Shown: one piece after another, positions 43,780 through 64,000 of the stretch
Position numbering within the stretch: position 1 is the first letter of the stretch
Layout of the letters: each line of letters starts with the position of its first letter
From: Pseudohongiellaceae bacterium
GTDB lineage: Bacteria; Pseudomonadota; Gammaproteobacteria; Pseudomonadales; Dasaniaceae
Reading direction: 5' to 3'
NCBI GenBank assembly: GCA_051277005.1
Contig: JBNMPS010000001.1
Location: forward strand, 1,337 to 65,336
DNA: 64,000 nucleotides
The notes under the pieces: model-generated
Seen by the model: the letters and a program-made list of their open reading frames with translations, nothing else
Told to the model about the DNA's origin: nothing
The model's database searches: none
Program-made: the position numbers and the translations under genes

Positions 43780-43857
43780 TGATTTATTGACTATAAAGAA
43801 CAGTGTGTTGCGGCAAGGCCGGGCTTGCTCAACAAGCAGATAGGTCGCGGCAAGCGC

Positions 43858-47578: not shown

Positions 47579-47695
47579 ATGGGAATTAAACACCTGGCGA
47601 CGTTAGTTGATTTATTGCTTGAAGATGGCGGGCTCCAGCTGAGAAATTTGGAGAAGGCTCAGTCGTTTCACGAGCGGCTAGACGAATATTTTTAA
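47579..47695 (+). CDS. possible 38-aa ORF upstream of gspE (below ORF-track cutoff)
   Basis: Own translation: MGIKHLATLVDLLLEDGGLQLRNLEKAQSFHERLDEYF. It is loosely reminiscent of one MshEN/T2SSE_N helix-pair motif. No clear SD. It may be non-coding. Confidence 0.2.
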   Translation: MGIKHLATLVDLLLEDGGLQLRNLEKAQSFHERLDEYF

Positions 47696-47711
47696 GGAAA
47701 TCATTTTTAGC

Positions 47712-49433
47712 ATGGTAAAAGAAGAGGCAGCTGAAAGAAAAGCTGATTGGTCGCTAATGGCGCTGGGTCAGATTTTGATCGATCAAAAATCGATACAATC
47801 CAGAGATTTAGAGAAAGCCCTTGTGGTCCAGCAGCAACTGGGTGGGCGGCTAGGAGCTATACTTATTCGCTCCGGCAGTTTGTCAGAAAGCAATTTATTG
47901 GCTGCGCTTAATTTGCAGTTGGGGTTTGAGTTGCTGGATTTCAGTAAATCCTCTTCACCTAGCGATGAAGAGGTCGCTGCCGCTCTTGATTTAACTCGGC
48001 TGAGTGTCGACTGGTTGCTGCAGATGGATACGGTTATTTGGTTGCGTAATGAGCAGCTTTATTGTTTGGCTAAGGACCCGCTGTTGCCATTATTAGATGA
48101 AACGCTGATTGATGCCTGCGCACTCCCCATCCATTATTGTCTTGCCCGTTCTCAGGTGCTCGATAGTTTGCTGGCTAATGTGAAAATAACACAATCTGAG
48201 CAGCAGCTTGATGGCGATATGAACGATGATATTCAACAGCTTCGTGAGCTTGCTGAAGAAGCGCCAGTGATAGAAATGGTCAATAATATTATTTCACAAG
48301 CTTTGGAGGAGCGGGCCTCGGATATCCACGTAGAGCCCGAAGAAGATAGCTTTGATGTTAGGTATCGTATCGATGGCGTTATGGTAGCCAATCGTACTTT
48401 GCCCAAGCAGCGTTATTACGCTATTGCCTCTCGGCTAAAGTTAGTCTCAGGGATTGATATCGCCGAGCGACGCCTGCCTCAAGATGGCCGCATTGGTATG
48501 CGTATAAATGGCCAAGATTTAGATATTCGTGTGTCCTCTTTACCGGGTGTGCACGGTGAGTCAATTGTTATGCGTTTGCTGCCAAAAGAGCGGCAAGACA
48601 TGGTGTTAGATAAGCTGGGGTTTTTGCCCGATCACTTAGTGCTTATGCGCCGCTGGATGTCTCAGTCGCATGGCATTGTTTTAGTGACAGGGCCAACCGG
48701 TTCCGGCAAATCCACAACGTTGTATTCGGCCTTAGATGAATCGAACGATGGCGTAAAGAAAATCATTACCGTTGAAGACCCTGTTGAATTCAGATTGCCT
48801 CATGTTACCCAAGTGCAAGTACACAGTGATATTGGATTAAGTTTTGCGGCGGCATTACGCTCAATTCTTAGGCAAGATCCCGATGTGATTATGATTGGCG
48901 AAATACGTGATTTAGAAACAGCCGAAATTGCGGTGCAATCGGCATTAACAGGACACCTGGTATTATCAACCTTACATACCAACGATGCGATGAGTGCGTT
49001 TAATCGCTTAATTGATATGGGTATTGAGCCATTTTTGGCTGCAACGCCTGTCATTGCTGTGCAGGCTCAGCGATTGGTTAGGCGTTTATGCCCTGCGTGT
49101 TGTGAGCCTGTAGTTGTGCCGGATGACGTTCGCGACGAAGTAGCTCCTTTTGTTTCTCAGCTGTTTCCAGTGGGGAAAGCCAATTGGCAGCAAGCCGTTG
49201 GCTGTGAGCAATGCCAGGATTCGGGTTATCGAGGCCGCTTAGGCATTTATGAATTAATTGATGTTGATGAATCAATACGCGAGCTGGTTATGAGCAGAGC
49301 GTCGTTATCAGCGCTGCAGGCTAAGGCAAAAAGTGAGGGGTATAGAAGCTTTTATACCGACGGATTAATAAAAGCGTGGCAAGGCCTAACCAGTATTGAA
49401 GAGGTGCATCGTGTGGCGAGTCAGCATACATGA
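47712..49433 (+). CDS. gspE: type II secretion ATPase GspE-family with an MshEN-type N-terminal domain
   Basis: Walker A GPTGSGKST, LVLSTLHTNDA, tetracysteine CPACC...CEQC, and an N-terminal tandem 24-residue MshEN motif. Confidence 0.9.
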   Translation: MVKEEAAERKADWSLMALGQILIDQKSIQSRDLEKALVVQQQLGGRLGAILIRSGSLSESNLLAALNLQLGFELLDFSKSSSPSDEEVAAALDLTRLSVDWLLQMDTVIWLRNEQLYCLAKDPLLPLLDETLIDACALPIHYCLARSQVLDSLLANVKITQSEQQLDGDMNDDIQQLRELAEEAPVIEMVNNIISQALEERASDIHVEPEEDSFDVRYRIDGVMVANRTLPKQRYYAIASRLKLVSGIDIAERRLPQDGRIGMRINGQDLDIRVSSLPGVHGESIVMRLLPKERQDMVLDKLGFLPDHLVLMRRWMSQSHGIVLVTGPTGSGKSTTLYSALDESNDGVKKIITVEDPVEFRLPHVTQVQVHSDIGLSFAAALRSILRQDPDVIMIGEIRDLETAEIAVQSALTGHLVLSTLHTNDAMSAFNRLIDMGIEPFLAATPVIAVQAQRLVRRLCPACCEPVVVPDDVRDEVAPFVSQLFPVGKANWQQAVGCEQCQDSGYRGRLGIYELIDVDESIRELVMSRASLSALQAKAKSEGYRSFYTDGLIKAWQGLTSIEEVHRVASQHT

Positions 49434-50635
49434 GCAATCATTTTAATTACGTCGCTGTTGATGAGCAGGGCAATGAAGTTAGTGGTGACTTAGCCGCCAG
49501 CTCCGAGCGTGAGGCAATAGGTTTATTGATAAAACAATCATTAACGGTGTTAGTGATTGATAGCCAAGCCACGGCGGCGAAAGAAGAAGGCCCCGGCACT
49601 AAGCGGTTGACGCCCACTGATATCGTTACGGCTTTGTTTGAATTATCGTCAATGCTCAATGCTGGGGTTAGTGCCGCTGAGGCGGTGAGTTCGCAGGGCC
49701 AATCAGCCGCTCATCAGCGTATTCGTTGGGCGTTTCATCTTGCCTCTAAAACCTTGCGGCACGGCGGAAGTTTTGAGCAAGCCATGCAGGCCTCTGAGTT
49801 ACCGCTGCCTGATTATGTTTTTTATCTTATTAGGGCGGGGGAGTTATCGGGTAGTTTAGGTGCAGCTTTGACCGATGCCTGTGAGCAGCTGCAGCATGAT
49901 ATAGCGACCCGCAACGATACTCGTAATGCGTTGATATACCCGGTCATCTTGGTGGTGTCGGGTATTTTATCGGTATTGATGATGTTCATTTATGTTGTGC
50001 CCAGTTTTACCAATTTATTAGAAGAGGCTGAGCGCCTACCGTGGCTGGCGTGGGCTGTTCTATCGGCAGGTGATTGGTCAAATAAGCATTTTTTGCTGTT
50101 GGCTATGATGCTGGCGACGCCCCCTGTATTGCTGTTTGCGGCTTGGTCGCAGGCAAATATTAGAGTTAAAATATTGCACCTGATCGAAAAAATGCCGATT
50201 GTAGGTGATTGGGTCTCACATGCCGATATTGCAGCTTGGTCTAAGGTGTTGTCGTCTTTGGTTCGAAATCGTGTAGAGCTTGTTGTCGCTTTGGAGTTGG
50301 CAGCAGAGACCGTGCGTATGCCCAGTCGTAAACGAAGTTTGGTTGACGCTAAAAATGCCGTAAAAGCGGGGGTGCCATTATCGGCCGCCCTGGAAGACAG
50401 TCAATGCTTAAATGCTACCGGCTATAACCTTATTCGAGTAGGCGAACGCTCCGGTAAATTAGGGGAAATGCTAAACGCCCTTGCCAAGCTTTACATGGAA
50501 CAAGGCCAGCAGCGAATGAAAAAAATGCTGATATTAATTGAGCCCGTGGCCATATTAATCATTGGTATTGGCATGGGGATAATTATCATTGGTATTATGC
50601 TGGCCATTACCAGCGCTAATGACATCCCGTTATAA
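49430..50635 (+). CDS. gspF: type II secretion platform protein GspF
   Basis: 401 aa with two T2SSF repeats and 3 TM segments. The ATGA overlap with gspE suggests coupling. Confidence 0.88.
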   Translation: MSNHFNYVAVDEQGNEVSGDLAASSEREAIGLLIKQSLTVLVIDSQATAAKEEGPGTKRLTPTDIVTALFELSSMLNAGVSAAEAVSSQGQSAAHQRIRWAFHLASKTLRHGGSFEQAMQASELPLPDYVFYLIRAGELSGSLGAALTDACEQLQHDIATRNDTRNALIYPVILVVSGILSVLMMFIYVVPSFTNLLEEAERLPWLAWAVLSAGDWSNKHFLLLAMMLATPPVLLFAAWSQANIRVKILHLIEKMPIVGDWVSHADIAAWSKVLSSLVRNRVELVVALELAAETVRMPSRKRSLVDAKNAVKAGVPLSAALEDSQCLNATGYNLIRVGERSGKLGEMLNALAKLYMEQGQQRMKKMLILIEPVAILIIGIGMGIIIIGIMLAITSANDIPL

Positions 50636-50685
50636 GTTAATCAATAAGACCGCTTTAATTAAATAAACACGATATAGATAATATA

Positions 50686-51132
50686 ATGAAAAATTGTACA
50701 GTAAAAAATAAAACCCAAGGTTTTACTCTCTTAGAAATGATCGTAGTACTGGTCATTATAGGTTTAATTGCCGGATTAGTCGGCCCCAGTTTGTTTAAAC
50801 AAGCCGATAAAGCCAAGGTACAAACGGCGGGCACGCAGCTTAAAATGTTGAGAGGGGCGTTACATACCTTAAGGCTCGACATGGGGCGCTTACCTTCAGA
50901 GCAAGAGGGTTTGAACTTATTAGTAAAGGCGCCTTCTGATGAGCGTGTTGCGCAATTTTGGGAAGGCCCTTATATCGACGGCCGTTTACCGCTAGACCCT
51001 TGGAAAAGAGATTATGTCTATACCTTTAAAAAGAGCGAGTTCGAGCCGTTTACTCTTTATTCATTAGGGGCTGATGGTGAGGTAGGTGGTGATAGCGATA
51101 ATAAGGATATAGGTTATTTACCGGCGCAATAA
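50686..51132 (+). CDS. gspG: T2SS major pseudopilin GspG
   Basis: Prepilin motif QGFTLLEMIVVLVIIG, then ...PWKRDYVY...YSLGADGEVGGDSDNKDI, which is the GspG-specific C-terminus. Confidence 0.9.
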   Translation: MKNCTVKNKTQGFTLLEMIVVLVIIGLIAGLVGPSLFKQADKAKVQTAGTQLKMLRGALHTLRLDMGRLPSEQEGLNLLVKAPSDERVAQFWEGPYIDGRLPLDPWKRDYVYTFKKSEFEPFTLYSLGADGEVGGDSDNKDIGYLPAQ

Positions 51133-51529
51133 TACCAGCAAAGGTTTCACCATTCTTGAGATGGTGGTTGTCATGGTGTTGATTGGTGTTGTTACATCGT
51201 TGGCTATTCCCGGCGTACAAAAAATGTACGGCAGTATGGAGCGGTCATTAAAGCGCAAAGACCTTCATGCCGCCTTAAACAGCCTGGCATTACTGGTACA
51301 AACTTCTGGTAGCCCCGTCACGTTTAAAGGGTTTCCAGCGGAGCCAGGGGAATTACCGCAGGCGTTTATTGATCGTTTAGCTGAATTGGATATCAGTTTA
51401 GCTGCAGAGGCGCCTATTTATATTAGCGCTGCAGGTTTTTGCCCCGAGGGCGGCAAACTGATAGTGACTTCAGGCCGTACGCAGTACGCGTTATCGTTGC
51501 GTGAAATAGATTGCCGCGTCGTAAAGTGA
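51116..51529 (+). CDS. gspH: minor pseudopilin (GspH-like by position); start codon unresolved (ATT 51116 or ATG 51161)
   Basis: The prepilin motif KGFTILEMVVVMVLIG is encoded at 51140-51187, but no ATG, GTG or TTG lies between the in-frame stop (51110) and the motif. The ATT at 51116 has AAGGA 8 nt upstream. Confidence 0.6.
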   Translation: MYRRNNTSKGFTILEMVVVMVLIGVVTSLAIPGVQKMYGSMERSLKRKDLHAALNSLALLVQTSGSPVTFKGFPAEPGELPQAFIDRLAELDISLAAEAPIYISAAGFCPEGGKLIVTSGRTQYALSLREIDCRVVK

Positions 51530-51652
51530 AGAGTGATAGCCAGAGTGAATGAAGAGTAAATCCAAGTGATTTTCATTGCTGTCTATGGATTGTCGTTTGC
51601 TCTCAATGAAATTACCACGCACTTGCTTGCCTCAAACATGAAAGGTTTATAA

Positions 51653-52084
51653 ATGAAGGTGCTAACCCATCAAAAAGGCTTTACGCTATTAGAAGCGGTA
51701 GTGGCGATTGCTATTTTTGCGATGGGGGCTACCGCGTTATACAGTGCGATAAACACCCACTTAAAAACGCTAGAACGAATAGATCACGTCAATACACGTA
51801 ATTCGGCCATAGAAAGCGCCATAGAGTTTATGAGCACCGTTGACCCAGTCACTACGCCGCAAGGCCAGGCCAAAATCGGTGAAATGACCCTGATGTGGGA
51901 GGCTACAGCGCCTATATATGCCGCAGATGTACTGGATGAGCAAAATATAAAAACCATTAACCAAGCCAGTTTGTTTGATACGGCGGTAAGCTTGTCTCGG
52001 CAAGGTGATCTTATCAGCGTATTCAATATTACCTTGTTGGGTGTGAATAAAGCTAAAGGGGTAGGTGATGGCTTCTTTGATTAA
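51653..52084 (+). CDS. gspI: minor pseudopilin GspI-like
   Basis: QKGFTLLEAVVAIAIFAMG prepilin motif. 143 aa. Confidence 0.75.
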   Translation: MKVLTHQKGFTLLEAVVAIAIFAMGATALYSAINTHLKTLERIDHVNTRNSAIESAIEFMSTVDPVTTPQGQAKIGEMTLMWEATAPIYAADVLDEQNIKTINQASLFDTAVSLSRQGDLISVFNITLLGVNKAKGVGDGFFD

Positions 52085-52736
52085 ATCACCTCTACAGCGC
52101 AATGAAGGTTTTACGCTGTTAGAGATGTTGGTAGTGATTATGTTGGTTTCAATGCTGGCTGGCATGTTAATGCAGGGTTTTGTTTATATGTCGGGGGTTT
52201 ACAGTGCCGTTGAGCGTCGCCAAAAACTTTCAGAATCACAGCAGCTTTTAGAGGGCTGGTTTAAACAAAGTATTTTGGGGGTGGTAAATGGTATCGATAG
52301 TAGTGCTGAGACCTCAACGTTTGAAGGGCAGCAACACTATTTTAAAGCTATTTCTTATTCGCCATTAGTGGAATGGGCATATCAACAAGAAAGCGGGCAA
52401 GCCTCGCGTTCGCCGCACTATATTGAGTGGCGCCTTGAGAAAGACGAAAAACGGCTGCGGTTAAAGTATGGCCAAGCCTTATTGCAGGGCAAAAATCAAT
52501 GGCGCTGGTTTACTATTCGAGAATGGCCGTTTGCCGAGGCTGATTTTCAGTACTTATATAATGGCCAGTGGTTAGGTGAGTTCCCCCCGGCTAGAAGTTT
52601 TAATGAGGTGCCTCCACTGCTTCCGCAAGGTATAGCCATTAGTATTCGTGGTTTACGCATACCTTTTGATCTATTTGTTGCTACCAAAAGTGCGTCCAGT
52701 GCTTATTATCCACCCAGAGAATACGGTGGCTTTTAA
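52065..52736 (+). CDS. gspJ: minor pseudopilin GspJ-like
   Basis: NEGFTLLEMLVVIMLVSML prepilin motif. 223 aa. Confidence 0.72.
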   Translation: MMASLIKSPLQRNEGFTLLEMLVVIMLVSMLAGMLMQGFVYMSGVYSAVERRQKLSESQQLLEGWFKQSILGVVNGIDSSAETSTFEGQQHYFKAISYSPLVEWAYQQESGQASRSPHYIEWRLEKDEKRLRLKYGQALLQGKNQWRWFTIREWPFAEADFQYLYNGQWLGEFPPARSFNEVPPLLPQGIAISIRGLRIPFDLFVATKSASSAYYPPREYGGF

Positions 52737-53788
52737 TGACTAATAAAAAAACACAGTCAGGTTTTGTATTGGTTACAGTGCTGTGGGTATTGGTCATCAT
52801 GCTAATGGCCTTAACCGCATTCACTGCATGGGTCGATAATGCCCGAGAGCAAGCCAGTAGCCGGCAAGAGTTGATCAATGCAAAAATAAAAAGCCATAGT
52901 CTATTCTCTCGGGCGTTGTTTACCTATATGACAGGCAAGCAAGCAGCCAGTGGTATTTCATGGCCTGCCGAAGGTGGGGCGACGGTGGTAATTCCCGGTA
53001 ATATCAATATCGCCGATTTTTTTGATGTACCCACCTTATTACCAAACAGTGTAGAAGCTGGTTTTATGCAAATGAATGGCCGGGTAATAGATGCGGGCGG
53101 TGGCTTGAGAATCATGATACAAGACCGGGGCGGATTAATAGGTTTATCTTTTTTAAGAAAGGCATCGGTGTATAGCGGTATCAATAGTATCGGGGGCGGC
53201 AACTACACCGTTGATGAGCTAAAACATACGCTACAAGATTACCATGATAAAAATAGCTTTCGCTTGGCAAAGGGTGCCGAGGGGCAACAATACAAACAGG
53301 CTGGCTTGCCCGCCCCCGCCAATGGTTATTTACGCAACCCATTACAGCTTCGCAGTGTTATGCATTGGCACACATTGCTAGGTGAGGTGTCTGATGCTTG
53401 GATTTTGCAAAACTTCAAAGTAGAAGGTGGCGCTGCGGTTAATGTAAACAGTGCACAAATTGATAGCTTGTCGTTGGTGGTGGGCAGTGATGATGTGGCA
53501 CAGCAAATAGAAAATAAAAGGCAGTTAGGTGCCATTAATAGTATTTTTCATATTCCGCTGCCGCCAGAGGACTTTGAAAATAATTTTTTTACCATGATGC
53601 CTGCCGATGGTTTGCGCTTTTGGAGCTGGCATATAAACCATCCCACTGCGCAAGTTTATGATGTACAATTCAACGCCCTTGCGCCAGGACAAAGCGCCTG
53701 GGTTGTGAACTGGATGACAAGAGTAACACTACCTGATGAATTGGCTCGACGCACAGCGGTTGAAATTAATCACCCGTTTTTCCACTAA
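52736..53788 (+). CDS. gspK: minor pseudopilin GspK-like
   Basis: The N-terminus QSGFVLVTVLWVLVIMLMAL has a Gly cleavage site and lacks Glu+5, as in GspK. 350 aa. Confidence 0.7.
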   Translation: MTNKKTQSGFVLVTVLWVLVIMLMALTAFTAWVDNAREQASSRQELINAKIKSHSLFSRALFTYMTGKQAASGISWPAEGGATVVIPGNINIADFFDVPTLLPNSVEAGFMQMNGRVIDAGGGLRIMIQDRGGLIGLSFLRKASVYSGINSIGGGNYTVDELKHTLQDYHDKNSFRLAKGAEGQQYKQAGLPAPANGYLRNPLQLRSVMHWHTLLGEVSDAWILQNFKVEGGAAVNVNSAQIDSLSLVVGSDDVAQQIENKRQLGAINSIFHIPLPPEDFENNFFTMMPADGLRFWSWHINHPTAQVYDVQFNALAPGQSAWVVNWMTRVTLPDELARRTAVEINHPFFH

Positions 53789-54839
53789 ACACGGCTTCCT
53801 TTCGGGGGATGAGTTGGTTGAGCTGGAGGCGAGTAGCCTAACCCCTAGGCTGATTATTGGACGTGACCAATGCCGCTACGCGGGCATTGATTTTTCACAT
53901 GTGCCTAAAAATAAACGCCAGCAAGCACTAATACATCAGCTCACAGCACTCAGTATGTGGCAAGAAACGGCACATTGCGTTGCCTGGCAGGGTGGTTTTG
54001 CACAGCTGTGGTTTTGGGATGCTAGTCAAATTCGTCGCATTCAAAAGGCACACAAAAATCACGGTCTAACACGTCTACGGTCGCCCTTGTATTTAGCCGA
54101 AGCCGTTTATTGGCAAAAGCCAGCAGCGGCAGGGGTGTATTTATGTCACTGTCATTCCGGTTTCGATCTTCAGAATTGGCAAAATGGCTACTTAGTGGCA
54201 AGCCAATGGTTTAGGCGTAGCCCTGAACAAACACAAATAAAACGATTTGCTCGTTCGCAAGGTCTTGCGGATGCTAGTGCGCAAAGCTTGGTGCCGGTAA
54301 CAGAACTATTGCCATGGCCGGGGGTGGTACGTCCCCTTAAGACTTATTGGTTAGAGCGTAAACAGCAACTGGCGATAGCGTTTTGTTCCGCGGTCGTTTT
54401 TTTAATGAGTTTACAATTAATTGCTATTGCTCAATGGTCGGCCACCGAAAATGATATCCAGCACGAGATCACTAAGCTTGAATCTTCAGCAAAAAATTTA
54501 CTGGCGGCGCGTGGCAAAGCACGCAGGGCGTCAGTGGCATCGGGCAATATAGTGCAGTTATTTGACATGCCCGACACGTTAGCGAGTCAGTGGGCCGTTT
54601 TGCAGCGTATACCTAGCGAGCTAAACCTATCATTAAAAAAATGGCAGCGTAATATTGATAGTGTTGAAATCATTGTTGAGGGGCAAATTGTTGATACCTT
54701 AAGTTTAGTGAAAGCGCTCAATAAAAAAGGCATTACTGCCGCCAAGGTGGAGCCATCACGTATCAATGGCCAATATAATATAGCGTTAACGATCCAGCCG
54801 CAGGCCATAACAGCTGTTAAAAAAGAGGCTGTATTATGA
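53736..54839 (+). CDS. gspL: GspL-like assembly protein (assigned by position and topology; start uncertain)
   Basis: A cytoplasmic domain of about 210 aa, a single TM (LAIAFCSAVVFLMSLQLIAIAQW), and a periplasmic domain. The 53-nt overlap with gspK suggests a later start (for example TTG 53814). Confidence 0.5.
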   Translation: MNWLDAQRLKLITRFSTKHGFLSGDELVELEASSLTPRLIIGRDQCRYAGIDFSHVPKNKRQQALIHQLTALSMWQETAHCVAWQGGFAQLWFWDASQIRRIQKAHKNHGLTRLRSPLYLAEAVYWQKPAAAGVYLCHCHSGFDLQNWQNGYLVASQWFRRSPEQTQIKRFARSQGLADASAQSLVPVTELLPWPGVVRPLKTYWLERKQQLAIAFCSAVVFLMSLQLIAIAQWSATENDIQHEITKLESSAKNLLAARGKARRASVASGNIVQLFDMPDTLASQWAVLQRIPSELNLSLKKWQRNIDSVEIIVEGQIVDTLSLVKALNKKGITAAKVEPSRINGQYNIALTIQPQAITAVKKEAVL

Positions 54840-56010: not shown

Positions 56011-56151
56011 AGCGGCTATCGATTACAGGCAGCTATAAAATAGAAGGCCGCAGCAAAAAGTGTGGTGGAGCAAAAGGGCTATTACGTTAGTCATAGGCCA
56101 TTTAGCGGCACATAGCCGCTCAATATAATATTTCAATAAGAGTTTAATACC

Positions 56152-58317: not shown

Positions 58318-58501
58318 CGCACCCGTATGGATAGAGTAGGAAAGTTCAAGTGCACGTGATGCAGGTCAAAAACACGGGAAATTATCGGGGAGGGTAACTT
58401 AAAAAAAGATAGCACTTCCATGGTTAAGGCTTTGTTTTAGGTAAATAAAGCTAAAATTTGTGACTTAGTACCAAGCCGAGGCCTAATGCGGATAAAAAAA
58501 G

Positions 58502-58529
58502 TTGCAAAGTGAAATAAACTACCTACAAT
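58502..58529 (+). promoter_or_regulatory. near-consensus sigma-70 promoter TTGCAA-N16-TACAAT
   Basis: Read directly. It predicts a leader of about 100 nt containing the CGAGGCGCCTCG and TACTTACGTAAGTA palindromes, then AAGGA-N8-ATG. Confidence 0.55.
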
Positions 58530-58638
58530 GCTGTAGCAGTAGCAGGCGAGGCGCCTCGTCTACGTTGCTTGAAGCGCTCCAATAAAAGCGTTAAAGATTT
58601 TACTTACGTAAGTACATAAAACGATAAAGGATAAAGAA

Positions 58639-60324
58639 ATGAAGAACATCTTGAAAAAGACGACCTTGGCATTAGCCATTGCTGCTGTATCTACCGGTGC
58701 ATTTGCAGGGGATTTGGATTACACGGGTGCTAACGATGTAGCCCTTACGCTAGCTAACGAAGTTTTTGGTACTGGCTCTGGAGATACATTGGTTGCAATT
58801 CCTGATGTGACATTCACTCTAGATGTTACTAAAGATGACATCGATGGTACAGCCGGTGAAGTTGCAACTGTTAAGTTAACTTTAGATAGTGGAGCTGTAT
58901 TCGGTGAAGATTTGTCAGACATCGACAAATGGGCTGATTCATCAACCATCTTAAACTTTGTGAATGGCACAGGTACTGAAACTGTTGGCGGATCGGGCTC
59001 TCCATTTGCTACTGCTACGGCTAACTTCGCAACTATTACTGTTACTCAAGGTGGTGCAATCGGCGATAACACCGTAACTTTTGAGATCACTTCACAAACT
59101 GCAGGTGAAATTTTAACTTCTGTACGTGTTGCTGGATTTAGAGTTAAAGAATTGACTTCTGCACTTGAGCGTGGAGTTTCCAGCCCTGCGGTCAAACTAG
59201 GCGCTGAATTCCGTAACGTTGACACTGCTGTTACTGATACTGATACTGCATTAACTATTTTGACGTCACAAGACGGTGTTGAGCTGGAAGGCACGTTAAC
59301 TGATTATGACGATGCTGTTGTAGGCTTACGTGCTCGTATCGATGTTGCTGATACTGAATTGTCTTTCACTGGTGATGCAGTTAACGGTGCTGTAGGTACT
59401 GGTGCTGCACAAGATTTTGACGAGACTGATAATGTTGCTTTCGTAACTTTAGGTAACTTGCAAGTTAACCGTACTACTTATCAAGATGGCGTACCTGCTA
59501 CATTGAATGTTAAAAAAGAAGACGCTAACGACTTTGATTTTAACGGTTCAGATACTATTACTGTAGCGCTTACTTCTTCATCTGCACTAACAAGCTACGA
59601 TGAAGTTTACCTACGTACTGACGTTGGTGGTCTAGGTGTTCAAGACTGTGACGACGCGTCTGTTGGTGCTGACTTTGTTGGTTCTGCAGTATTGGGCGAC
59701 GACACAATGGTTGAGTTTGACCTGTCTGGTGAGTCTACAGCTGCTTTAGCAGTTGGTTATGAAGTATGTGCGGTAGCTGCTGGAACTAGCGCTATCCCTG
59801 AGTCTTCTTTTACAGCTTCTTTAACGGTTGAGTACTTTAACCCTCGTTATACTGATTCTGAAGACACGTTGTCTTACGGCAATATCTTACGTAACGGTTG
59901 TCAAGTAACATTGTTCAACGTACCTGCGCCTGATTCTCCAGACTCAGCTGCAATTCGTTTAACTAACGTTTCTGAAAAGCCAGGGGCTGTTCGTGCATTT
60001 ATGTACACACAAGACGGTACTCAAATCGACTTGAACTCTGAGCTAGTTGCTTCTTTAGCACCACATGCGACAGTTGTACTTAAGTCTAACCCAGGCCAAA
60101 CTGGTAACGGTTACTTAGGTGATGCAATGCCTACATATGCTGCTTCTTTGAATGCAGACGGTCGTAACCGTTTAGTTATTCAAGGTGCTTTCCCAGCATG
60201 TGAAGCCTTAGGTCTTGTTCGTACTCCAGCTGGCGTATTAACTAACCTAACTAGCACCACTTACTCAGGTGATGCGACTCGTTTAGGTGCTCAAAACAAT
60301 GGTACTTCTAACACTTCTAACTAA
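58639..60324 (+). CDS. abundant-type secreted/surface protein, 561 aa, acidic and Thr/Gly/Asp/Val-rich (S-layer-like candidate)
   Basis: Sec signal MKNILKKTTLALAIAAVSTGAFA|GD. Codon usage is strongly skewed to GGT, GCT, ACT, GTT and TCT, and Arg is CGT in all but one case. It has its own promoter and a strong terminator, and 4 Cys. I cannot name the family. Confidence 0.85.
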   Translation: MKNILKKTTLALAIAAVSTGAFAGDLDYTGANDVALTLANEVFGTGSGDTLVAIPDVTFTLDVTKDDIDGTAGEVATVKLTLDSGAVFGEDLSDIDKWADSSTILNFVNGTGTETVGGSGSPFATATANFATITVTQGGAIGDNTVTFEITSQTAGEILTSVRVAGFRVKELTSALERGVSSPAVKLGAEFRNVDTAVTDTDTALTILTSQDGVELEGTLTDYDDAVVGLRARIDVADTELSFTGDAVNGAVGTGAAQDFDETDNVAFVTLGNLQVNRTTYQDGVPATLNVKKEDANDFDFNGSDTITVALTSSSALTSYDEVYLRTDVGGLGVQDCDDASVGADFVGSAVLGDDTMVEFDLSGESTAALAVGYEVCAVAAGTSAIPESSFTASLTVEYFNPRYTDSEDTLSYGNILRNGCQVTLFNVPAPDSPDSAAIRLTNVSEKPGAVRAFMYTQDGTQIDLNSELVASLAPHATVVLKSNPGQTGNGYLGDAMPTYAASLNADGRNRLVIQGAFPACEALGLVRTPAGVLTNLTSTTYSGDATRLGAQNNGTSNTSN

Positions 60325-60366
60325 GTTGTGTAAAAGCTATCATTCTGTAGCTTAGGCTATAGGCAG

Positions 60367-60394
60367 AAAGGCTCCTTCGGGAGCCTTTTTTTTT
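60367..60394 (+). terminator. strong rho-independent terminator
   Basis: AAAGGCTCC-TTCG-GGAGCCTTT followed by T9. Confidence 0.85.
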
Positions 60395-60440
60395 AGCACT
60401 ATAAACACTTAATAATTGTAAGTGGCGGTAAATAATTCCC

Positions 60441-60995
60441 ATGGTTGAAAAGCCCTTTATATTTGTGCATATTAATAAAACCGGCGGCAGCAGTATTGAA
60501 CGGGCGTTGGGACTGGAGCTAGAGCATAAAACCGCCCGTGAATACATCGCGGATCTGGGTGAAGGTGTCTGGGAAAAACAGCACACCTTTAGTGTGGTAC
60601 GAAACCCCTGGGATAAAGTAGTGTCACACTACCATTGGCGGGTTAAAACAAACCAAACAGCGCTAGCTGAAAGCCCCATTGATTTTTGTGAATGGGTGAA
60701 AAGGGCCTTTGGCAATAACGAACCCGGCTATTACGATAAACCCAAGATGTTTATGCCCTCAGAGCAGTGGCTTATAAATAATAAAGGTGAAATTGCAGTT
60801 AACACGATAATGCGGTTTGAAAATCTCATTAATGATTTTGACGCCTTGTGTCGGCAGTTGGGTGTGGTGGCAACATTACCCCATTTAAAAAAAACAGAGC
60901 GGACTCATTATCAGCAATATTACAACGACGAAGCATGTAGTATTATTGCGTTATGGTTTAAAAATGATATTGAGCAGTTTAATTATCAGTTTTAG
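60441..60995 (+). CDS. sulfotransferase family protein
   Basis: FIFVHINKTGGSSIERAL (PAPS-binding 5-prime-PSB-like loop) and VVRNPWDKVVSHY (3-prime-PB-like). Confidence 0.7.
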   Translation: MVEKPFIFVHINKTGGSSIERALGLELEHKTAREYIADLGEGVWEKQHTFSVVRNPWDKVVSHYHWRVKTNQTALAESPIDFCEWVKRAFGNNEPGYYDKPKMFMPSEQWLINNKGEIAVNTIMRFENLINDFDALCRQLGVVATLPHLKKTERTHYQQYYNDEACSIIALWFKNDIEQFNYQF

Positions 60996-61043
60996 CTATC
61001 AAATTAAAGCTAGCAATAGAATGAAAATTAATAAGAGGTAGAA

Positions 61044-61700
61044 ATGTTTAAAACAATACAACTCAAATGGCCATTACTGGCTTTATTTATTGTGGTGATT
61101 ACTGGCTTGCAAAATGCTTGGGCTATAGAGCCAAAGCCAAAGCCAGAGCCGGTACCCGTAGTGGACTTTGAAAAAGGCAAATACTACAAAACTTTAGATA
61201 AACCTATTGTGGGTGCTACGGCTCCTATAATGGAGTTTTTCTATTTTGGCTGTAAAACATGTTACCAGCTAGTACCGGCACTGGCGCAGTGGAGCCATGA
61301 AACAGGTATTGGCGTGACCTTGGTTCCGGTGCACAGTGACAACGCTATGGTAGATGCCGCGCGCTTGTATCACACCTTTGCAGAAATGAATGTATTGAGC
61401 AGAATGTATGAGTTGGGTTATGTGATTTTTCAAACAGATAAATCAGAATTAAAAGGTGAGGCGCGTATTAATGATTACCTAGAGCGCCACAGAGTGAATA
61501 AGGAACGTTTTTGGAAAATATGGAATAGCGATAAAGTAAATAAACGTCTAGCAGGCTCATTAGCATTAACTCAACAAGCGAAAATATATAAAACTCCGAC
61601 CTTTTTAGTGAAGGGTCGCTATATGGTGAACATAGATGCTATTACACATGTAGAGCACTTATTTCAACTATTAGAGTATTTAAATAAAAAGCCTGATTAA
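61044..61700 (+). CDS. DsbA-family thiol:disulfide oxidoreductase paralogue (active site CKTC)
   Basis: Signal peptide, FFYFGCKTCYQL, and the cis-Pro loop KTPTFLVKGRY. Confidence 0.75.
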   Translation: MFKTIQLKWPLLALFIVVITGLQNAWAIEPKPKPEPVPVVDFEKGKYYKTLDKPIVGATAPIMEFFYFGCKTCYQLVPALAQWSHETGIGVTLVPVHSDNAMVDAARLYHTFAEMNVLSRMYELGYVIFQTDKSELKGEARINDYLERHRVNKERFWKIWNSDKVNKRLAGSLALTQQAKIYKTPTFLVKGRYMVNIDAITHVEHLFQLLEYLNKKPD

Positions 61701-61818
61701 ATAATAAGCTACATTATCAGTTGCCTTCAGTACAAAGAGTATGAGGGCGGCACTTTTTATCAGTCTCGCTGTGTCACTAGCCGTGAAATAGCCTAGCGTA
61801 CAAAAAGAAAATAATAAC

Positions 61819-63813
61819 GTGAAAACAGAGTATCGAGCCGATATTGATGGCCTAAGGGCTATAGCTGTATTATCGGTATTTATGTATCACCTAGGTTTAG
61901 CCTCATTTAGCGGGGGTTATGTGGGTGTTGATATTTTTTTTGTCATTTCTGGCTTCCTAATAACGCGTATTATTACCCGTGATATAAAACGTGGGCAGTT
62001 CTCGCTGCCTGCCTTTTATGCGAAGCGTTTCAAACGTATTTTGCCAGCCTTAGCCGCAATGGCAGTGGCCTGTATGGTGGTTGCCTATGCCTTACTTGCG
62101 CCTGAAAATTTAGCCGAACTGGGCGATAGCGCAGTGGCGATGGCGTTGTTTGGTTCAAATATATTTTTCTATCTGCAGGCGGGCTATTTTGATGCGCCCG
62201 CTGAAATGAAACCGCTGTTGCATACCTGGTCGTTAGCGGTAGAGGAGCAATACTATTTATTGTTTCCGCTGATGATGATGGGGTTAGCAAAGTGGAATCG
62301 TAGTCGTTATACCCGTTGGTTACTAATATTGTGCTTAATATCTTTCGTGGTTGGGCTTGTTCAAAGCTATAGCGGCAACCAATCGGCGGCATTTTATTGG
62401 ATTACTTCACGGGCCTGGGAGTTATTTTTAGGCAGCTTACTGGTTGTTCCTTTATTCCCCTTACCAACAACAAAAGCGCTTAGAGAGCTGTTATCGCTAT
62501 TGGGGTTAACCTTAATCGCTGTGAGTGTGTTTGGTTTTGATAATCAAACGGTTTTTCCTGGTGTTGCTGCGCTAGTGCCAACAATAGGCGCCGCTTTGAT
62601 TATTTATGCGGGTTTAGGTGGCTCATCAATAGTGGGCCGTCTACTCAGTGTTAAACCATTAATGTTATTAGGTTTAATATCGTATTCATTATACTTATGG
62701 CATTGGCCAATTATTGTATATGCCAAGTACTATTCAATTACTCCCCTTGAGTATAAACAGATGGCAGGTATTGTCGTGGTCGCGTTGATTGTGTCGTGGT
62801 TATCATGGCGCTATGTGGAAACACCGTTTAGAAAAAGCCAGCAAAATCAATCTAAGGTATTGGTTGTTTCATTGACGGTATTAGCCGCCTTGATGGTTGG
62901 CGGCTTAGTGCTGAGTATGAATAAAGGTTTTGAAGGTCGATACCAAAACGTCACGGCGCATAATAGCGATCAACAATGGCTGCATTGGACCGCTTGCCAA
63001 AATGTTAGCACAAGAATTAGACAAGGGCAGCCGCTGTGTGTAATGGGGAGCCAAAACGCTAAACCAACCTTTTTATTATGGGGTGATTCACATGCTAAGT
63101 CGATAGCTGTCGCTTTTGATACCGCGGCACAAGAAAATGATATTAAGGGTCAAATAGCCATTCAAACAGGCTGCCCACCACTATTAGGTATAGAGCGTAC
63201 TGGTCGAACACGCTGCCATCAATTTAATCAAACGGTATTAACCTATTTAATAAATAACCCTGACATTAAAACTATTGTGTTAGCCGCAAGGTGGGCCTTA
63301 TCAACAAAAGGCACACGTTATAAGCAGGAGGCAGGCAAACAAGTAACGTTAATTGCAATTGATGATGGCGGCAATAAACAAGTCGTTAAAAAAAGTCAAA
63401 ATAATGTAGGCCTTTTTAATAAAGGTTTACGGCGAACGGTAAAACAATTAACCCAGTTAGGCCGGCAGGTGGTAATTGTAGGCCCTATACCAGAGGTTGG
63501 CTACCATGTGCCTGCAGCAGAATTTGTGGCATCGCGCACCCAGCAAGATGTAAATAAACTGATTGCACCGTCAAAACAAGAGTTTAAAAAACGCACCCAA
63601 GAGGTAGATGTTGTATTCTCACAATTGAGTACACATAATCACGTAAGTATTATTGAACCGGCCAAAAAACTTTGTGAATACGAAGTTTGTAATGTTTTTT
63701 TTAATGGCAAAGTGCTGTACCGTGATGACGATCATTTATCGACCGATGGCGCACGCTATATAACACCGTTAATCAGCGAGTATTTTTACCAGCAACATAA
63801 GGGCCTGCAATGA
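61819..63813 (+). CDS. OafA/YrhL-type acyltransferase-3 with a C-terminal SGNH domain
   Basis: YRADIDGLRAIAVLSVFMYH..VDIFFVISGFLIT, about 10 TM segments, and a C-terminal LWGDSHA SGNH motif. GTG start. Confidence 0.87.
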   Translation: MKTEYRADIDGLRAIAVLSVFMYHLGLASFSGGYVGVDIFFVISGFLITRIITRDIKRGQFSLPAFYAKRFKRILPALAAMAVACMVVAYALLAPENLAELGDSAVAMALFGSNIFFYLQAGYFDAPAEMKPLLHTWSLAVEEQYYLLFPLMMMGLAKWNRSRYTRWLLILCLISFVVGLVQSYSGNQSAAFYWITSRAWELFLGSLLVVPLFPLPTTKALRELLSLLGLTLIAVSVFGFDNQTVFPGVAALVPTIGAALIIYAGLGGSSIVGRLLSVKPLMLLGLISYSLYLWHWPIIVYAKYYSITPLEYKQMAGIVVVALIVSWLSWRYVETPFRKSQQNQSKVLVVSLTVLAALMVGGLVLSMNKGFEGRYQNVTAHNSDQQWLHWTACQNVSTRIRQGQPLCVMGSQNAKPTFLLWGDSHAKSIAVAFDTAAQENDIKGQIAIQTGCPPLLGIERTGRTRCHQFNQTVLTYLINNPDIKTIVLAARWALSTKGTRYKQEAGKQVTLIAIDDGGNKQVVKKSQNNVGLFNKGLRRTVKQLTQLGRQVVIVGPIPEVGYHVPAAEFVASRTQQDVNKLIAPSKQEFKKRTQEVDVVFSQLSTHNHVSIIEPAKKLCEYEVCNVFFNGKVLYRDDDHLSTDGARYITPLISEYFYQQHKGLQ

Positions 63814-64000
63814 AAGTATTTGGTATTGGTTTTCATAAAACGGCCACAAAATCCTTAGCTAAGGCACTTACTCAATTGGCCTACAAAACAACAGGCCCCA
63901 ATGGTGTACAAGATATTCACTGTGAGCAAGATGCATGGCGAGTTGCGGAGCCGTTACTGAATGAATTTGACGCCTTTCAAGACAACCCCTGGCCATTGCT
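63810..64000 (+). CDS. sulfotransferase-like protein, 5-prime partial (runs off the window)
   Basis: MKVFGIGFHKTATKSLAKAL resembles the P-loop-like start of a sulfotransferase family. ATGA overlap with the acyltransferase stop. Confidence 0.45.
   Translation, partial: MKVFGIGFHKTATKSLAKALTQLAYKTTGPNGVQDIHCEQDAWRVAEPLLNEFDAFQDNPWPL

What the first reader, a model, noticed from the sequence alone, without database searches (positions are those of the whole stretch)
47579..64000. Xps-order T2SS operon, a highly expressed secreted protein and DsbA/sulfotransferase/acyltransferase genes next to waaL: candidate cargo-dedicated surface-layer export and anchoring module
Seen in the sequence: eleven co-directional genes (47712-58317), several with start/stop overlaps. 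They encode GspE, GspF, GspG, three prepilin-type minor pseudopilins, GspK-, L-, M- and C(HR-domain)-like proteins, and a secretin placed last (E-F-G-H-I-J-K-L-M-C-D rather than C-D-E...). No prepilin peptidase gene is present. About 320 bp downstream sits a 561-aa Sec-signal protein with its own promoter, a long leader, a strong terminator and codon usage unlike every neighbour. It is followed by a sulfotransferase, a DsbA paralogue, an OafA-type acyltransferase and a second sulfotransferase-like gene. Immediately upstream is the LPS core locus, ending in an O-antigen ligase. Established knowledge: the E...N-D order is that of Xanthomonas xps. In Aeromonas the S-layer proteins VapA/AhsA require dedicated GspD/GspE homologues (SpsD/ApsE) encoded beside the structural gene, and the layer is tethered via O-antigen LPS. 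Inference: this roughly 16-kb block is a T2SS dedicated to the adjacent cargo, plus enzymes that modify the cargo or its LPS anchor. I cannot assign the cargo to a named family, so the pairing may be undescribed.
Basis: partly seen in the sequence, partly recalled or inferred. Interest (0 to 1): 0.8.

Follow-up and report, generated by a model that had tools for sequence, protein, structure and literature searches.

The report
Surface-layer protein with its own secretion system
This block encodes a type II secretion machine that always travels with one abundant-looking secreted protein, a distant relative of the marine S-layer protein Slr4; the layout is already known from Aeromonas, Pseudoalteromonas and Paracidovorax, so only the cargo family is new.

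Summary
Window 47712-58317 carries eleven co-directional T2SS genes in the order E-F-G-H-I-J-K-L-M-C-D. They are followed by a separately promoted and terminated 561-aa Sec-signal protein with extreme codon bias (Nc 35 against 42-60 for neighbours). Next come a sulfotransferase, a DsbA paralogue, an AT3-SGNH acyltransferase and a second sulfotransferase. An LPS-core/WaaL locus lies upstream.

The dedicated-cargo reading is well supported. In all 18 other loci with enough flank, a cargo homologue lies next to the same T2SS. These loci span Alkalimarinus, Oleiphilaceae, Cellvibrio, Alteromonas, Chitinimonas and Sulfurimicrobium. All 5 evaluable metagenomic secretins of at least 50% identity are followed by the cargo.

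The pairing is not undescribed. Aeromonas spsE-to-vapA (inserted in the O-antigen cluster), Pseudoalteromonas Slr4 and Paracidovorax NpdA have the same layout.

The cargo does not match the Pfam Slr4 model. Profile-profile comparison links only its C-terminal domain to Slr4 (92-97% probability). It is unrelated to NpdA. The AlphaFold model is a chain of Ig-like beta-sandwiches with no enzyme fold.

Verdict: a probable S-layer or matrix protein of a new, unnamed family, inside a known kind of system. Lattice formation is untested.

Extras: liposecretin, MshEN-like ATPase N-terminus, conserved promoter and 5' UTR with an invariant palindrome.

The parts
45848..47068 (+). O-antigen ligase (WaaL-like), last gene of the LPS-core locus that starts at about 34479
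   Evidence: PF04932 Wzy_C at 1.9e-19. waaF, waaC, waaP and GT4 genes lie upstream.
47712..49433 (+). GspE-type secretion ATPase with an MshEN-like N-terminal domain (two 24-aa motifs at residues 17-40 and 46-69)
   Evidence: PF00437 at 7.8e-132. TIGR02533 at 549 bits (below its 630 cutoff). NF053729 c-di-GMP motif at 45.2 bits (cutoff 38).
49430..50635 (+). GspF inner-membrane platform protein
   Evidence: PF00482 at 3.9e-45; TIGR02120 at 7.9e-62.
50686..51132 (+). GspG major pseudopilin
   Evidence: TIGR01710 at 166.6 bits (cutoff 88.85); PF08334 and N_methyl also match.
51113..51529 (+). H-position minor pseudopilin. The first ATG is at 51161, but the prepilin motif KGFTILE is encoded upstream with no canonical start codon.
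   Evidence: N_methyl at 28.4 bits when read from 51113. 56% identical to the 134-aa orthologue in Alkalimarinus. Sequence.
51653..52084 (+). GspI-like minor pseudopilin
   Evidence: N_methyl at 6.9e-9; TIGR01707 at 1.5e-6, below its cutoff.
52065..52736 (+). GspJ-position minor pseudopilin
   Evidence: N_methyl at 2e-6. Assignment rests on position and size (223 aa; Aeromonas SpsJ is 235 aa, PMC4483657).
52736..53788 (+). GspK-like minor pseudopilin
   Evidence: NF037980 at 3.2e-5 and PF21687 at 1.6e-3, both below their cutoffs. Orthologues in L007 and L008 hit T2SSK_1st.
53736..54839 (+). GspL-position protein (367 aa; central hydrophobic segment)
   Evidence: No family or PDB match. The single-sequence AF2 model is unusable (pLDDT 37). 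Conserved in every related locus. Aeromonas SpsL is 371 aa.
54836..55444 (+). GspM-like protein
   Evidence: NF040576 GspM/XpsM at 3.7e-6, 26.7 bits, below its cutoff of 60.
55444..56010 (+). GspC-like protein
   Evidence: PF11356 T2SSC at E 0.028. Orthologues score better: L008 at 31.7 bits (passes the cutoff) and L003 at 2.4e-4.
56152..58317 (+). Secretin (GspD type), predicted lipoprotein (lipobox Cys37)
   Evidence: PF00263 at 8.8e-43, plus PF03958. TIGR02517 at 299.5 bits, below its cutoff. The lipobox Cys is invariant in 11 of 11 orthologues.
58502..58529 (+). Candidate sigma-70 promoter of the cargo gene (TTGCAA-16-TACAAT)
   Evidence: Found by the scan. The -35 and -10 columns are invariant in the alignment of 8 intergenic regions. 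The motif is found in 12 of 13 loci.
58544..58561 (+). 5'-proximal stem-loop of the roughly 100-nt leader
   Evidence: RNAalifold predicts 8 pairs, 4 of them with compensatory changes.
58603..58612 (+). Invariant palindrome CTTACGTAAG in the leader, 26 nt before the ATG
   Evidence: Present once, at the same relative place, in all 13 close-clade loci. Absent from the rest of 1.23 Mb of fetched loci and from the rest of the window.
58639..60324 (+). Cargo: a 561-aa Sec-signal, acidic, all-beta protein. Probable S-layer or matrix protein; remote Slr4 relative.
   Evidence: 98 homologues, all labelled hypothetical. Nc 35.1. AF2 pLDDT 83.5, Ig-like sandwiches. hhalign to Slr4 at 92-97% probability, C-terminal domain only. 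pI 4.05, four invariant Cys.
60365..60397 (+). Intrinsic terminator of the cargo gene
   Evidence: 11-bp GC-rich hairpin followed by a U-run. The whole 76-nt folded segment 60325-60400 has dG -28.3 kcal/mol, z -3.9.
60441..60995 (+). Sulfotransferase (no signal peptide)
   Evidence: PF03567 Sulfotransfer_2 at 1.2e-6, 29.2 bits, above its cutoff of 22.
61044..61700 (+). DsbA paralogue (CKTC active site, signal peptide)
   Evidence: PF01323 at 2.1e-10. A DsbA gene follows the cargo in 8 of 8 close-clade loci.
61819..63813 (+). AT3-SGNH (OafA/OafB-type) O-acyltransferase
   Evidence: PF01757 at 1.2e-31 plus PF19040 at 1.2e-56.
63810..64000 (+). Second sulfotransferase, cut off by the window end
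   Evidence: PF17784 Sulfotransfer_4 at 1e-5, 25.9 bits, above its cutoff of 22.8.

Best explanation
The block is an S-layer-type surface-protein module of the Aeromonas Sps/VapA and Pseudoalteromonas Slr4 kind.

Proposed mechanism, step by step:
1. The 561-aa protein is transcribed at a high level from its own conserved promoter. The mRNA has a roughly 100-nt leader that begins with a stem-loop and ends at a strong terminator.
2. The protein crosses the inner membrane through Sec, and the signal peptide is cleaved after AFA.
3. It folds in the periplasm into a chain of Ig-like beta-sandwiches. Its two probable disulfides are made by the adjacent DsbA paralogue.
4. It is pushed through the lipoprotein secretin by the eleven-gene T2SS encoded directly upstream, which serves this one substrate.
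5. On the surface it assembles on the LPS. The neighbouring cytoplasmic sulfotransferases and the periplasm-facing AT3-SGNH acyltransferase decorate the O-polysaccharide or core that tethers it.

What is shown: gene content and order; conserved cargo-T2SS linkage; remote homology to Slr4; codon bias; the promoter, leader and terminator; the invariant cysteines.

What is inferred: lattice formation; dedicated export; the role of DsbA; LPS tethering.
For: T2SS components are identified.

Cargo-T2SS adjacency holds in all 18 other evaluable loci from Gamma- and Betaproteobacteria. It is co-directional in most and divergent in the Alteromonas clade.

Reverse test: 5 of 5 evaluable metagenomic secretins with at least 50% identity are followed by the cargo. 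Among the 52 evaluable loci with secretins at 32-41% identity, 19 have a superfamily cargo nearby at E<=1e-5. A further 7 are followed by a Sec-signal protein of 450-580 aa, of which 4 also match the cargo profiles significantly when the HMMER filters are switched off.

Link to Slr4: A1 vs the Slr4 alignment gives 92% probability (E 6.5e-7); A2 gives 97.2% (3.7e-11); the intermediate group A4 gives 96% over 143 columns. A1 vs A4 gives 100% over the full length. Intermediates reach the Pfam Slr4 cutoff.

The P. tunicata Slr4 locus has the same layout, including sulfotransferases.

Published precedents: PMC7821379, PMC11094555, PMC4483657, PMC10765051.

Codon bias. Conserved promoter and leader. 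Terminator. Fold without an enzyme match. Four invariant Cys. DsbA after the cargo in 8 of 8 close loci, and a sulfotransferase within 5 kb in 8 of 8.
Against: No experiment shows a lattice, abundance or T2SS dependence for this family.

The window protein does not match Pfam Slr4 even at E<=1. Profile-to-sequence HMMER does not link the two families. Detectable homology covers only about 90-140 C-terminal residues.

Foldseek hits are generic Ig-like pilins and adhesins with TM about 0.2, which would fit an adhesin equally well.

DsbA and sulfotransferase linkage is confined to the close clade. The Alteromonas and Chitinimonas loci lack it, apart from Aestuariibacter L020, which has sulfotransferases.

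Whether the organism has a second, general T2SS could not be checked.
Confidence: 0.7

Rival explanations
1. The cargo is a T2SS-secreted biofilm-matrix or adhesin protein. It coats cells or matrix without forming a two-dimensional crystalline layer, in the manner of Vibrio cholerae RbmA or Bap1.
For: The model is a chain of Ig/FnIII-like sandwiches. Its PDB neighbours are pilins, MSCRAMM adhesins and RbmA (ranks 29, 32, 50). The ATPase carries an MshEN-like, possibly c-di-GMP-responsive domain. [quoted passage not shown]
Against: There are no repeats or calcium-binding adhesin motifs. The size, acidity, extreme codon bias and one-gene, one-T2SS arrangement match known S-layer proteins (VapA, Slr4, NpdA). 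The structural matches are weak (TM about 0.2).
Confidence: 0.2
2. The operon is the organism's general-purpose T2SS, and the 561-aa gene is just one neighbour or substrate among many.
For: Only 64 kb of the genome is visible. No second gsp cluster or prepilin peptidase can be shown or excluded. General Xps systems also use the E-to-D order.
Against: Adjacency to the cargo holds in all 18 other evaluable loci, despite only 26-68% cargo identity and an orientation flip. The reverse test on close secretins gave 5 of 5. Core proteins score below the NCBIfam equivalog cutoffs for GspE, F and D, so the system is diverged from canonical Gsp. P. citrulli has two gsp clusters, one of them tied to npdA (PMC10765051).
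Confidence: 0.07
3. The cargo is a secreted enzyme or binding protein that acts on sulfated polysaccharide, and the neighbouring sulfotransferases reflect that substrate.
For: Carriers include polysaccharide degraders (Cellvibrio, Alteromonas). The C-terminal domain recurs in four tandem copies in large subtilase-containing proteins.
Against: No catalytic family appears in Pfam, NCBIfam or the PDB profile search. No enzyme fold appears among the top Foldseek hits. Sulfotransferases are biosynthetic, not degradative.
Confidence: 0.03

Closest known systems
Aeromonas salmonicida / A. hydrophila S-layer system (spsE-F-G-H-I-J-K-L...D followed by vapA/ahsA), inserted between wzm and wzt of the O-antigen cluster (PMC4483657)
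   Same: The gene order runs E to D with the layer protein last. Component sizes are close: SpsE 552, F 395, G 143, H 131, I 132, J 235, L 371 aa, against 573, 401, 148, 122-137, 143, 223 and 367 aa here. The module is embedded in LPS/O-antigen genes, including a family-3 acyltransferase. In relatives of the window, wzm and wzt lie just downstream.
   Different: Sequence relatedness of the cargo to VapA was not tested, because no VapA sequence was on hand. The window has an LPS-core/WaaL locus upstream rather than wzm. A DsbA paralogue and sulfotransferases are added.
Slr4 of Pseudoalteromonas tunicata D2 (Pfam PF19526) with its upstream T2SS operon (PMC7821379, PMC11094555)
   Same: A Sec-signal acidic protein of about 57 kDa lies immediately downstream of an E-F-pseudopilins-...-secretin operon. 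Sulfotransferase and glycosyltransferase genes are nearby. The C-terminal domain is homologous by profile-profile comparison.
   Different: The window protein does not match PF19526. No similarity is detectable in the N-terminal two thirds. The T2SS proteins are only 47% (E) and 25% (F, D) identical, and the others are undetectable by BLAST. The cysteine pattern differs (4 against 2). The P. tunicata operon has 10 genes and no DsbA.
NpdA S-layer protein of Delftia/Paracidovorax and many Beta- and Gammaproteobacteria, with an upstream 12-gene gsp cluster (PMC10765051)
   Same: A layer-protein gene lies directly downstream of a dedicated gsp cluster, conserved across two classes, in an organism that also has a second gsp cluster.
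   Different: No detectable sequence relationship to the window family. hhalign matched the signal peptide only, and phmmer found no hit among 306 proteins.
Xanthomonas Xps T2SS and Pseudomonas Hxc T2SS (liposecretin HxcQ, one dedicated substrate) - from my own knowledge
   Same: The E-to-D gene order matches Xps. The lipoprotein secretin and a narrow substrate range match Hxc.
   Different: Those systems export enzymes. No orthology was tested here.

Membership tests
Type II secretion system (Gsp/Xps/Sps) | GspE-family ATPase | tested here: met
   PF00437 at 7.8e-132. TIGR02533 at 549 bits is the best NCBIfam hit but lies below the equivalog cutoff of 630.
Type II secretion system (Gsp/Xps/Sps) | GspF platform protein and GspG major pseudopilin | tested here: met
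   PF00482 at 3.9e-45. TIGR01710 at 166.6 bits, above its cutoff of 88.85.
Type II secretion system (Gsp/Xps/Sps) | Four minor pseudopilins (H, I, J, K) with a prepilin cleavage motif | tested here: inconclusive
   N_methyl passes its cutoff for the H-position ORF (read from 51113), and for I and J. K scores only below the cutoffs (3.2e-5). The H-position ORF lacks a canonical start codon.
Type II secretion system (Gsp/Xps/Sps) | Assembly-platform proteins L, M and C | tested here: inconclusive
   M scores 26.7 bits (cutoff 60). C scores E 0.028, although its L008 orthologue passes at 31.7 bits. L has no match in Pfam, NCBIfam or PDB, and its AF2 model failed.
Type II secretion system (Gsp/Xps/Sps) | Outer-membrane secretin of the GspD type | tested here: met
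   PF00263 at 8.8e-43 and PF03958. TIGR02517 at 299.5 bits is the best hit but lies below its cutoff of 351.
Type II secretion system (Gsp/Xps/Sps) | A prepilin peptidase (GspO/PilD) available in the cell | not testable with these tools
   None found among the window ORFs scanned. The rest of the genome is not available.
Slr4 S-layer protein family (Pfam PF19526) | Match to the family model at or above the gathering score | tested here: not met
   No hit for the window protein at E<=1. Only 3 of 34 superfamily members reach E<=1, all of them from the distant A4 group. P. tunicata Slr4 itself scores 247.8 bits.
Slr4 S-layer protein family (Pfam PF19526) | Homology detectable by profile-profile comparison | tested here: inconclusive
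   Probability is 92-97% with E 6.5e-7 to 3.7e-11, but only over 76-143 columns of the C-terminal domain. HMMER profile-to-sequence comparison finds nothing.
Slr4 S-layer protein family (Pfam PF19526) | Sec-signal protein of about 57-59 kDa encoded immediately downstream of a T2SS operon | tested here: met
   The mature protein is 55.4 kDa with pI 4.05. The gene lies 321 bp after the secretin gene. The P. tunicata locus is shown.
Slr4 S-layer protein family (Pfam PF19526) | Most abundant cell protein, forming a p4 lattice on cells | not testable with these tools
   Only indirect evidence exists: Nc 35.1, plus a dedicated promoter and terminator.
Aeromonas VapA/AhsA-Sps system | sps gene order E to D with the layer gene last, embedded in LPS/O-antigen genes | tested here: met
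   LPS genes lie on both sides. wzm and wzt lie downstream in relatives. The comparison is with PMC4483657.
Aeromonas VapA/AhsA-Sps system | Sequence homology of the cargo to VapA/AhsA | not tested
The cargo profile finds nothing in the PDB.
NpdA S-layer family | Sequence homology to NpdA | tested here: not met
   hhalign of Gilvimarinus NpdA against A2 aligned only the signal peptide (11.6% probability). phmmer with two NpdA sequences found no hit among 306 collected proteins.
MshEN c-di-GMP-binding domain | [quoted passage not shown] | tested here: inconclusive
   NF053729 scores 45.2 bits, above its cutoff of 38. The spacing is exact. Motif II (RLGAILIRSGSLSESNLLAALNLQ) fits the published consensus except Ser in place of a hydrophobic residue at position 11. 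Motif I (ALGQILIDQKSIQSRDLEKALVVQ) lacks the Arg and the Gly.
Liposecretin (self-piloting lipoprotein secretin, HxcQ type) | N-terminal lipobox with an invariant Cys | tested here: met
   A Cys preceded by a lipobox-like [AGST]-[AGS] pair (most often L-A-G-C or S-S-C) is present in 11 of 11 orthologues. In the window it reads LHAAS-C37. Lipidation itself is not testable.

The most novel reading that the evidence does not exclude
The 561-aa protein founds a previously unnamed, widespread family of Gram-negative S-layer proteins, found in Cellvibrio, Alteromonas, Alkalimarinus, Oleiphilaceae, Chitinimonas and Sulfurimicrobium. It forms a continuum with Slr4 through a shared C-terminal domain. 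In the close clade it would depend on a private DsbA. It would be tethered to a sulfated, O-acetylated O-polysaccharide made by the flanking genes. Its output would be set by a conserved leader carrying the invariant palindrome CTTACGTAAG and by a c-di-GMP-sensing secretion ATPase.
Probability: 0.3. Interest if true: 0.55.

Novelty: new member of a known kind. Interest (0 to 1): 0.38.

Why it matters
It gives a testable function to about a hundred sequence clusters now labelled "hypothetical protein", found in well-studied polysaccharide degraders and marine bacteria. It would extend the Slr4 lineage well beyond what the Pfam model detects.

It adds a fourth cargo family (after VapA, Slr4 and NpdA) to the rule that proteobacterial S-layer genes carry their own E-to-D T2SS next to LPS genes.

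The recurrent DsbA, sulfotransferase, APS-kinase and Wzm/Wzt neighbours suggest a concrete anchor chemistry that can be tested.

The invariant leader palindrome is a handle on how such very highly expressed genes are controlled.

It does not change how these systems are thought to work.

Tried and rejected
- Direct BLASTP of the cargo against P. tunicata Slr4 found nothing. hhalign with the single OCR-derived Slr4 sequence gave only 35% probability. Real Slr4 sequences were then fetched.
- HMMER profile-to-sequence searches between the window family, the intermediates and Slr4 gave no significant hits. The link therefore rests on profile-profile comparison and on the weak Pfam hits of the intermediates.
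- NpdA was considered as the family and rejected.
- A PDB sequence-profile search with the cargo family found nothing. Foldseek gave only generic Ig-like matches.
- For the GspL-position protein, Pfam, NCBIfam and PDB found nothing. The single-sequence model was unusable (pLDDT 37).
- The L-like alignment was too divergent to seed a collection scan, so the secretin alignment was used for the reverse test.
- Rfam found no family in the leader. Its only hit was a sub-threshold match on the terminator hairpin.
- The promoter and terminator consensus scan was not enriched over shuffles (31 against 30.8) and missed the real terminator. The promoter call rests on conservation instead.
- Presence of a second gsp cluster or of pilD in the same genome could not be checked, because the source is a metagenomic contig.

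Full report
**1. Observation**

The ORF map shows eleven co-directional genes from 47712 to 58317, with several stop/start overlaps.

Pfam and NCBIfam identify four core components:
- a GspE-family ATPase (PF00437, 7.8e-132);
- GspF (PF00482);
- the major pseudopilin GspG (TIGR01710, 166.6 bits, above its cutoff);
- a GspD-type secretin (PF00263 and PF03958) placed last.

Two further ORFs carry the prepilin N-methylation motif. The 122-aa ORF also belongs to this class. The motif KGFTILE is encoded in frame just upstream of its first ATG, and the ORF passes the N_methyl cutoff when read from 51113. No ATG, GTG or TTG precedes the motif.

The K-, M- and C-like assignments rest on sub-threshold matches. 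The C orthologue in a Sulfurimicrobium locus does pass PF11356. The L-position protein matches nothing, and its single-sequence model failed. Its assignment is positional.

No prepilin peptidase was found among the window ORFs scanned.

- Sulfotransfer_2;
- a DsbA with a CKTC active site;
- an AT3+SGNH acyltransferase;
- a truncated Sulfotransfer_4 gene that starts at 63810.

Upstream lies an LPS-core locus with waaF, waaC, waaP, GT4 genes and a Wzy_C ligase.

**2. The cargo gene**

The 561-aa ORF at 58639-60324 stands out by codon usage. Its Nc is 35.1 and T3 is 0.48, against Nc 42-60 for the 38 other ORFs scored.

It ends at an 11-bp GC-rich hairpin followed by a U-run. The 76-nt folded segment 60325-60400 that contains it has dG -28.3 kcal/mol and z -3.9.

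The promoter-like TTGCAA-16-TACAAT at 58502-58529 would mean little alone, because the scan is not enriched over shuffles. Conservation makes the case. The secretin-to-cargo spacers of eight loci were aligned. The -35 and -10 columns are invariant there while the flanks are not. The motif recurs in 12 of 13 close loci.

The roughly 100-nt leader begins with a stem-loop that shows compensatory changes.

The leader also contains an invariant 10-nt palindrome, CTTACGTAAG. It sits 21-26 nt before the ATG in 12 of the 13 loci (one search prints 5 for L011, an artefact of the ATG regex) and occurs nowhere else in 1.23 Mb of fetched DNA.

The mature protein is 55.4 kDa, very acidic (pI 4.05) and rich in Thr, Ala, Gly, Val and Asp. 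It has exactly four cysteines, all invariant in the family.

**3. What the cargo is**

The protein has no Pfam or NCBIfam match. A profile of the family finds nothing in the PDB.

It has 98 homologues at 90% clustering, all labelled hypothetical. They come from Alkalimarinus coralli, Cellvibrio, Cellvibrionaceae, a contig named Stutzerimonas stutzeri, and Alteromonas.

A deep profile search finds 1142 representatives at E<=1e-3. Some are large proteins that carry the C-terminal domain in four tandem copies.

The AlphaFold model is confident (pLDDT 83.5, pTM 0.77) and consists of a chain of beta-sandwiches. Its PDB neighbours are pilins, MSCRAMM adhesins and similar Ig-like surface proteins at low TM-scores. 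None of the top matches suggests a catalytic fold.

A distant branch of the family (alignment A4, about 30% identical to the window protein) weakly reaches the Pfam model PF19526, "S-layer protein Slr4".

To test this link I recovered the P. tunicata Slr4 sequence from the supplement of PMC7821379. I then fetched genuine Slr4 family members and compared alignments:
- window family vs Slr4: 92% probability, E 6.5e-7, 76 columns;
- broadened family vs Slr4: 97.2%, E 3.7e-11, 92 columns;
- intermediates vs Slr4: 96%, 143 columns;
- window family vs intermediates: 100% over the full length.

All matches to Slr4 fall in the C-terminal domain. Profile-to-sequence HMMER does not connect the families.

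The protein is therefore a remote relative of Slr4. It is not a member of the Pfam family as defined. NpdA, a third S-layer family tied to a gsp cluster (PMC10765051), is not detectably related.

**4. Is the T2SS dedicated?**

*Forward test.* Every cargo homologue with enough flanking DNA lies next to the same 10-11-gene T2SS. These loci are:
- Alkalimarinus;
- the Stutzerimonas-labelled contig, Cellvibrio mixtus, Ningiella and Sulfurimicrobium;
- 17 loci from species genomes, two of which duplicate loci already fetched, including Oleiphilaceae, several Alteromonas, Aestuariibacter and three Chitinimonas.

That makes 18 distinct loci besides the window. In the Alteromonas clade the operon is divergent from the cargo gene rather than upstream and co-directional, yet it remains adjacent.

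*Reverse test.* I scanned metagenomes with an alignment of the secretins.
- Of the six loci with at least 50% secretin identity, five have enough downstream DNA, and all five have the cargo directly downstream.
- Of the 80 loci, 57 could be evaluated. Among the 52 evaluable loci at 32-41% identity, 19 carry a superfamily cargo nearby at E<=1e-5.
- A further seven are followed by a Sec-signal protein of 450-580 aa. Four of those also match the cargo profiles significantly when the HMMER filters are switched off.
- The remaining loci have other contexts.

Against Alkalimarinus, all eleven T2SS proteins are 37-80% identical. Against the P. tunicata Slr4-linked T2SS, only E (47%), F (25%) and D (25%) are recognisable by BLAST.

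**5. Neighbours**

In the eight loci whose cargo is at least 50% identical to the window protein (counts include the window):
- a DsbA gene follows the cargo in 8 of 8;
- a sulfotransferase lies within 5 kb in 8 of 8;
- a Wzt ABC-transporter ATPase (O-polysaccharide export) lies nearby in 6 of 8;
- an APS kinase lies nearby in 4 of 8.

The P. tunicata Slr4 locus also carries two Sulfotransfer_2 genes, glycosyltransferases and a flippase. The Slr4 paper does not mention sulfotransferases.

The sulfotransferases have no signal peptide and need PAPS. By established biochemistry they act in the cytoplasm, on glycan precursors rather than on the exported protein. AT3-SGNH proteins of the OafA/OafB type O-acetylate O-antigen (my own knowledge). 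These neighbours therefore point to a modified LPS or O-polysaccharide as the partner of the layer. This is an inference.

**6. Comparison with known systems**

The architecture is published. In Aeromonas salmonicida A450, the genes spsE, F, G, H, I, J, K, L and onward, followed by vapA as the last gene, are inserted between wzm and wzt of the O-antigen cluster. That cluster also holds a family-3 acetyltransferase (PMC4483657). The component sizes nearly coincide with those in the window.

Slr4 lies immediately downstream of a conserved T2SS operon (PMC7821379; PMC11094555).

npdA lies downstream of a 12-gene gsp cluster in an organism that has a second gsp cluster (PMC10765051).

The taxa carrying the window family are absent from the Slr4 species table. 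I found no paper that names this family.

**7. Additional features**

The secretin has an invariant lipobox cysteine in 11 of 11 orthologues. It is therefore probably a self-piloting liposecretin.

The ATPase N-terminus has two 24-residue MshEN-type motifs joined by a 5-residue spacer, and it passes NF053729 (45.2 bits against a cutoff of 38). Motif II fits the published consensus except at one hydrophobic position. Motif I lacks the Arg and the Gly. c-di-GMP binding is therefore possible but uncertain.

**8. Verdict**

The dedicated-cargo and surface-layer reading is the best explanation (confidence about 0.7). Export dependence, abundance, lattice formation and LPS tethering remain untested.

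The claim that the pairing may be undescribed does not hold for the system type. It holds only for this cargo family.

Novelty: a new member of a known kind. Interest is moderate.

Noticed in passing
window 58603-58612 (also L003:9965, L005:9970, L006:9970, L009:9969, L010:9968, L011:9967, L021:9970, L027-L030, L032): An invariant 10-nt palindrome, CTTACGTAAG, lies in the cargo leader, 21-26 nt before the ATG in 12 of the 13 close-clade loci. It occurs nowhere else in 1.23 Mb of fetched loci or in the window. It is absent from the Alteromonas, Chitinimonas, Sulfurimicrobium and P. tunicata loci. It is unpaired in the consensus fold. Its role (regulator site or RNA element) is unknown.
   Followed up: partly
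window 58502-58561: A conserved promoter, TTGCA(A/T)-N16-18-TA(C/G/A)AAT, is followed by a 5'-proximal stem-loop with compensatory changes. This would fit an mRNA-stabilising leader for a very highly expressed gene.
   Followed up: partly
window 56152-56265 (secretin N-terminus): The secretin has a lipobox with a Cys that is invariant in 11 of 11 orthologues. It is probably a liposecretin that needs no separate pilotin.
   Followed up: partly
window 47760-47918 (ATPase residues 17-69): The ATPase N-terminus has two tandem 24-residue MshEN-type c-di-GMP motifs with the canonical 5-residue spacer. Motif II fits the published consensus except at one hydrophobic position; motif I lacks the key Arg and Gly. 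The same arrangement is present in the Alteromonas-clade orthologues.
   Followed up: partly
window 51110-51163: The H-position pseudopilin encodes its prepilin motif (KGFTILE) upstream of the first ATG. No ATG, GTG or TTG follows the in-frame TAG at 51110-51112. Possible explanations are a rare start (ATT at 51116), an assembly error or a decaying gene. The Alkalimarinus orthologue has a normal start.
   Followed up: partly
cargo residues about 405-530; proteins P0162, P0163 and others: The cargo's C-terminal domain, the part shared with Slr4, recurs as four tandem copies in large proteins that also carry subtilase or Fib_succ_major domains. This suggests a widely used surface module that has no Pfam entry.
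   Followed up: no
L003, L005, L006, L009, L011, L012 downstream of the cargo: In close relatives the cargo and DsbA genes are followed by wzm and/or wzt (Wzt_C), sulfotransferases and often an APS kinase (in one locus also a TauE exporter). That is a complete kit for a sulfated O-polysaccharide exported by an ABC transporter. The window itself has an AT3-SGNH gene and two sulfotransferases in that position.
   Followed up: partly
window 28426-30252: A lone TfpB-type type IV pilus assembly ATPase (NF053534, 940 bits, above its cutoff of 850) sits next to glnE, with no other pilus genes nearby.
   Followed up: no
window 40500-44500: This stretch inside the LPS-core locus has only short ORFs (under 120 aa, apart from a 247-aa kinase-like ORF on the minus strand). 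Its GC content dips to 0.39-0.42. It may hold degraded or frameshifted genes.
   Followed up: no
window 6196-7899: A GGDEF-EAL protein (c-di-GMP turnover) lies 40 kb upstream. No link to the T2SS ATPase was examined.
   Followed up: no
cargo C-terminus (residues 541-561): A conserved tail, TTYSGD..RLG...NGTSNT.N, ends in an invariant final Asn across the family. The model has low confidence there. Its role is unknown.
   Followed up: no
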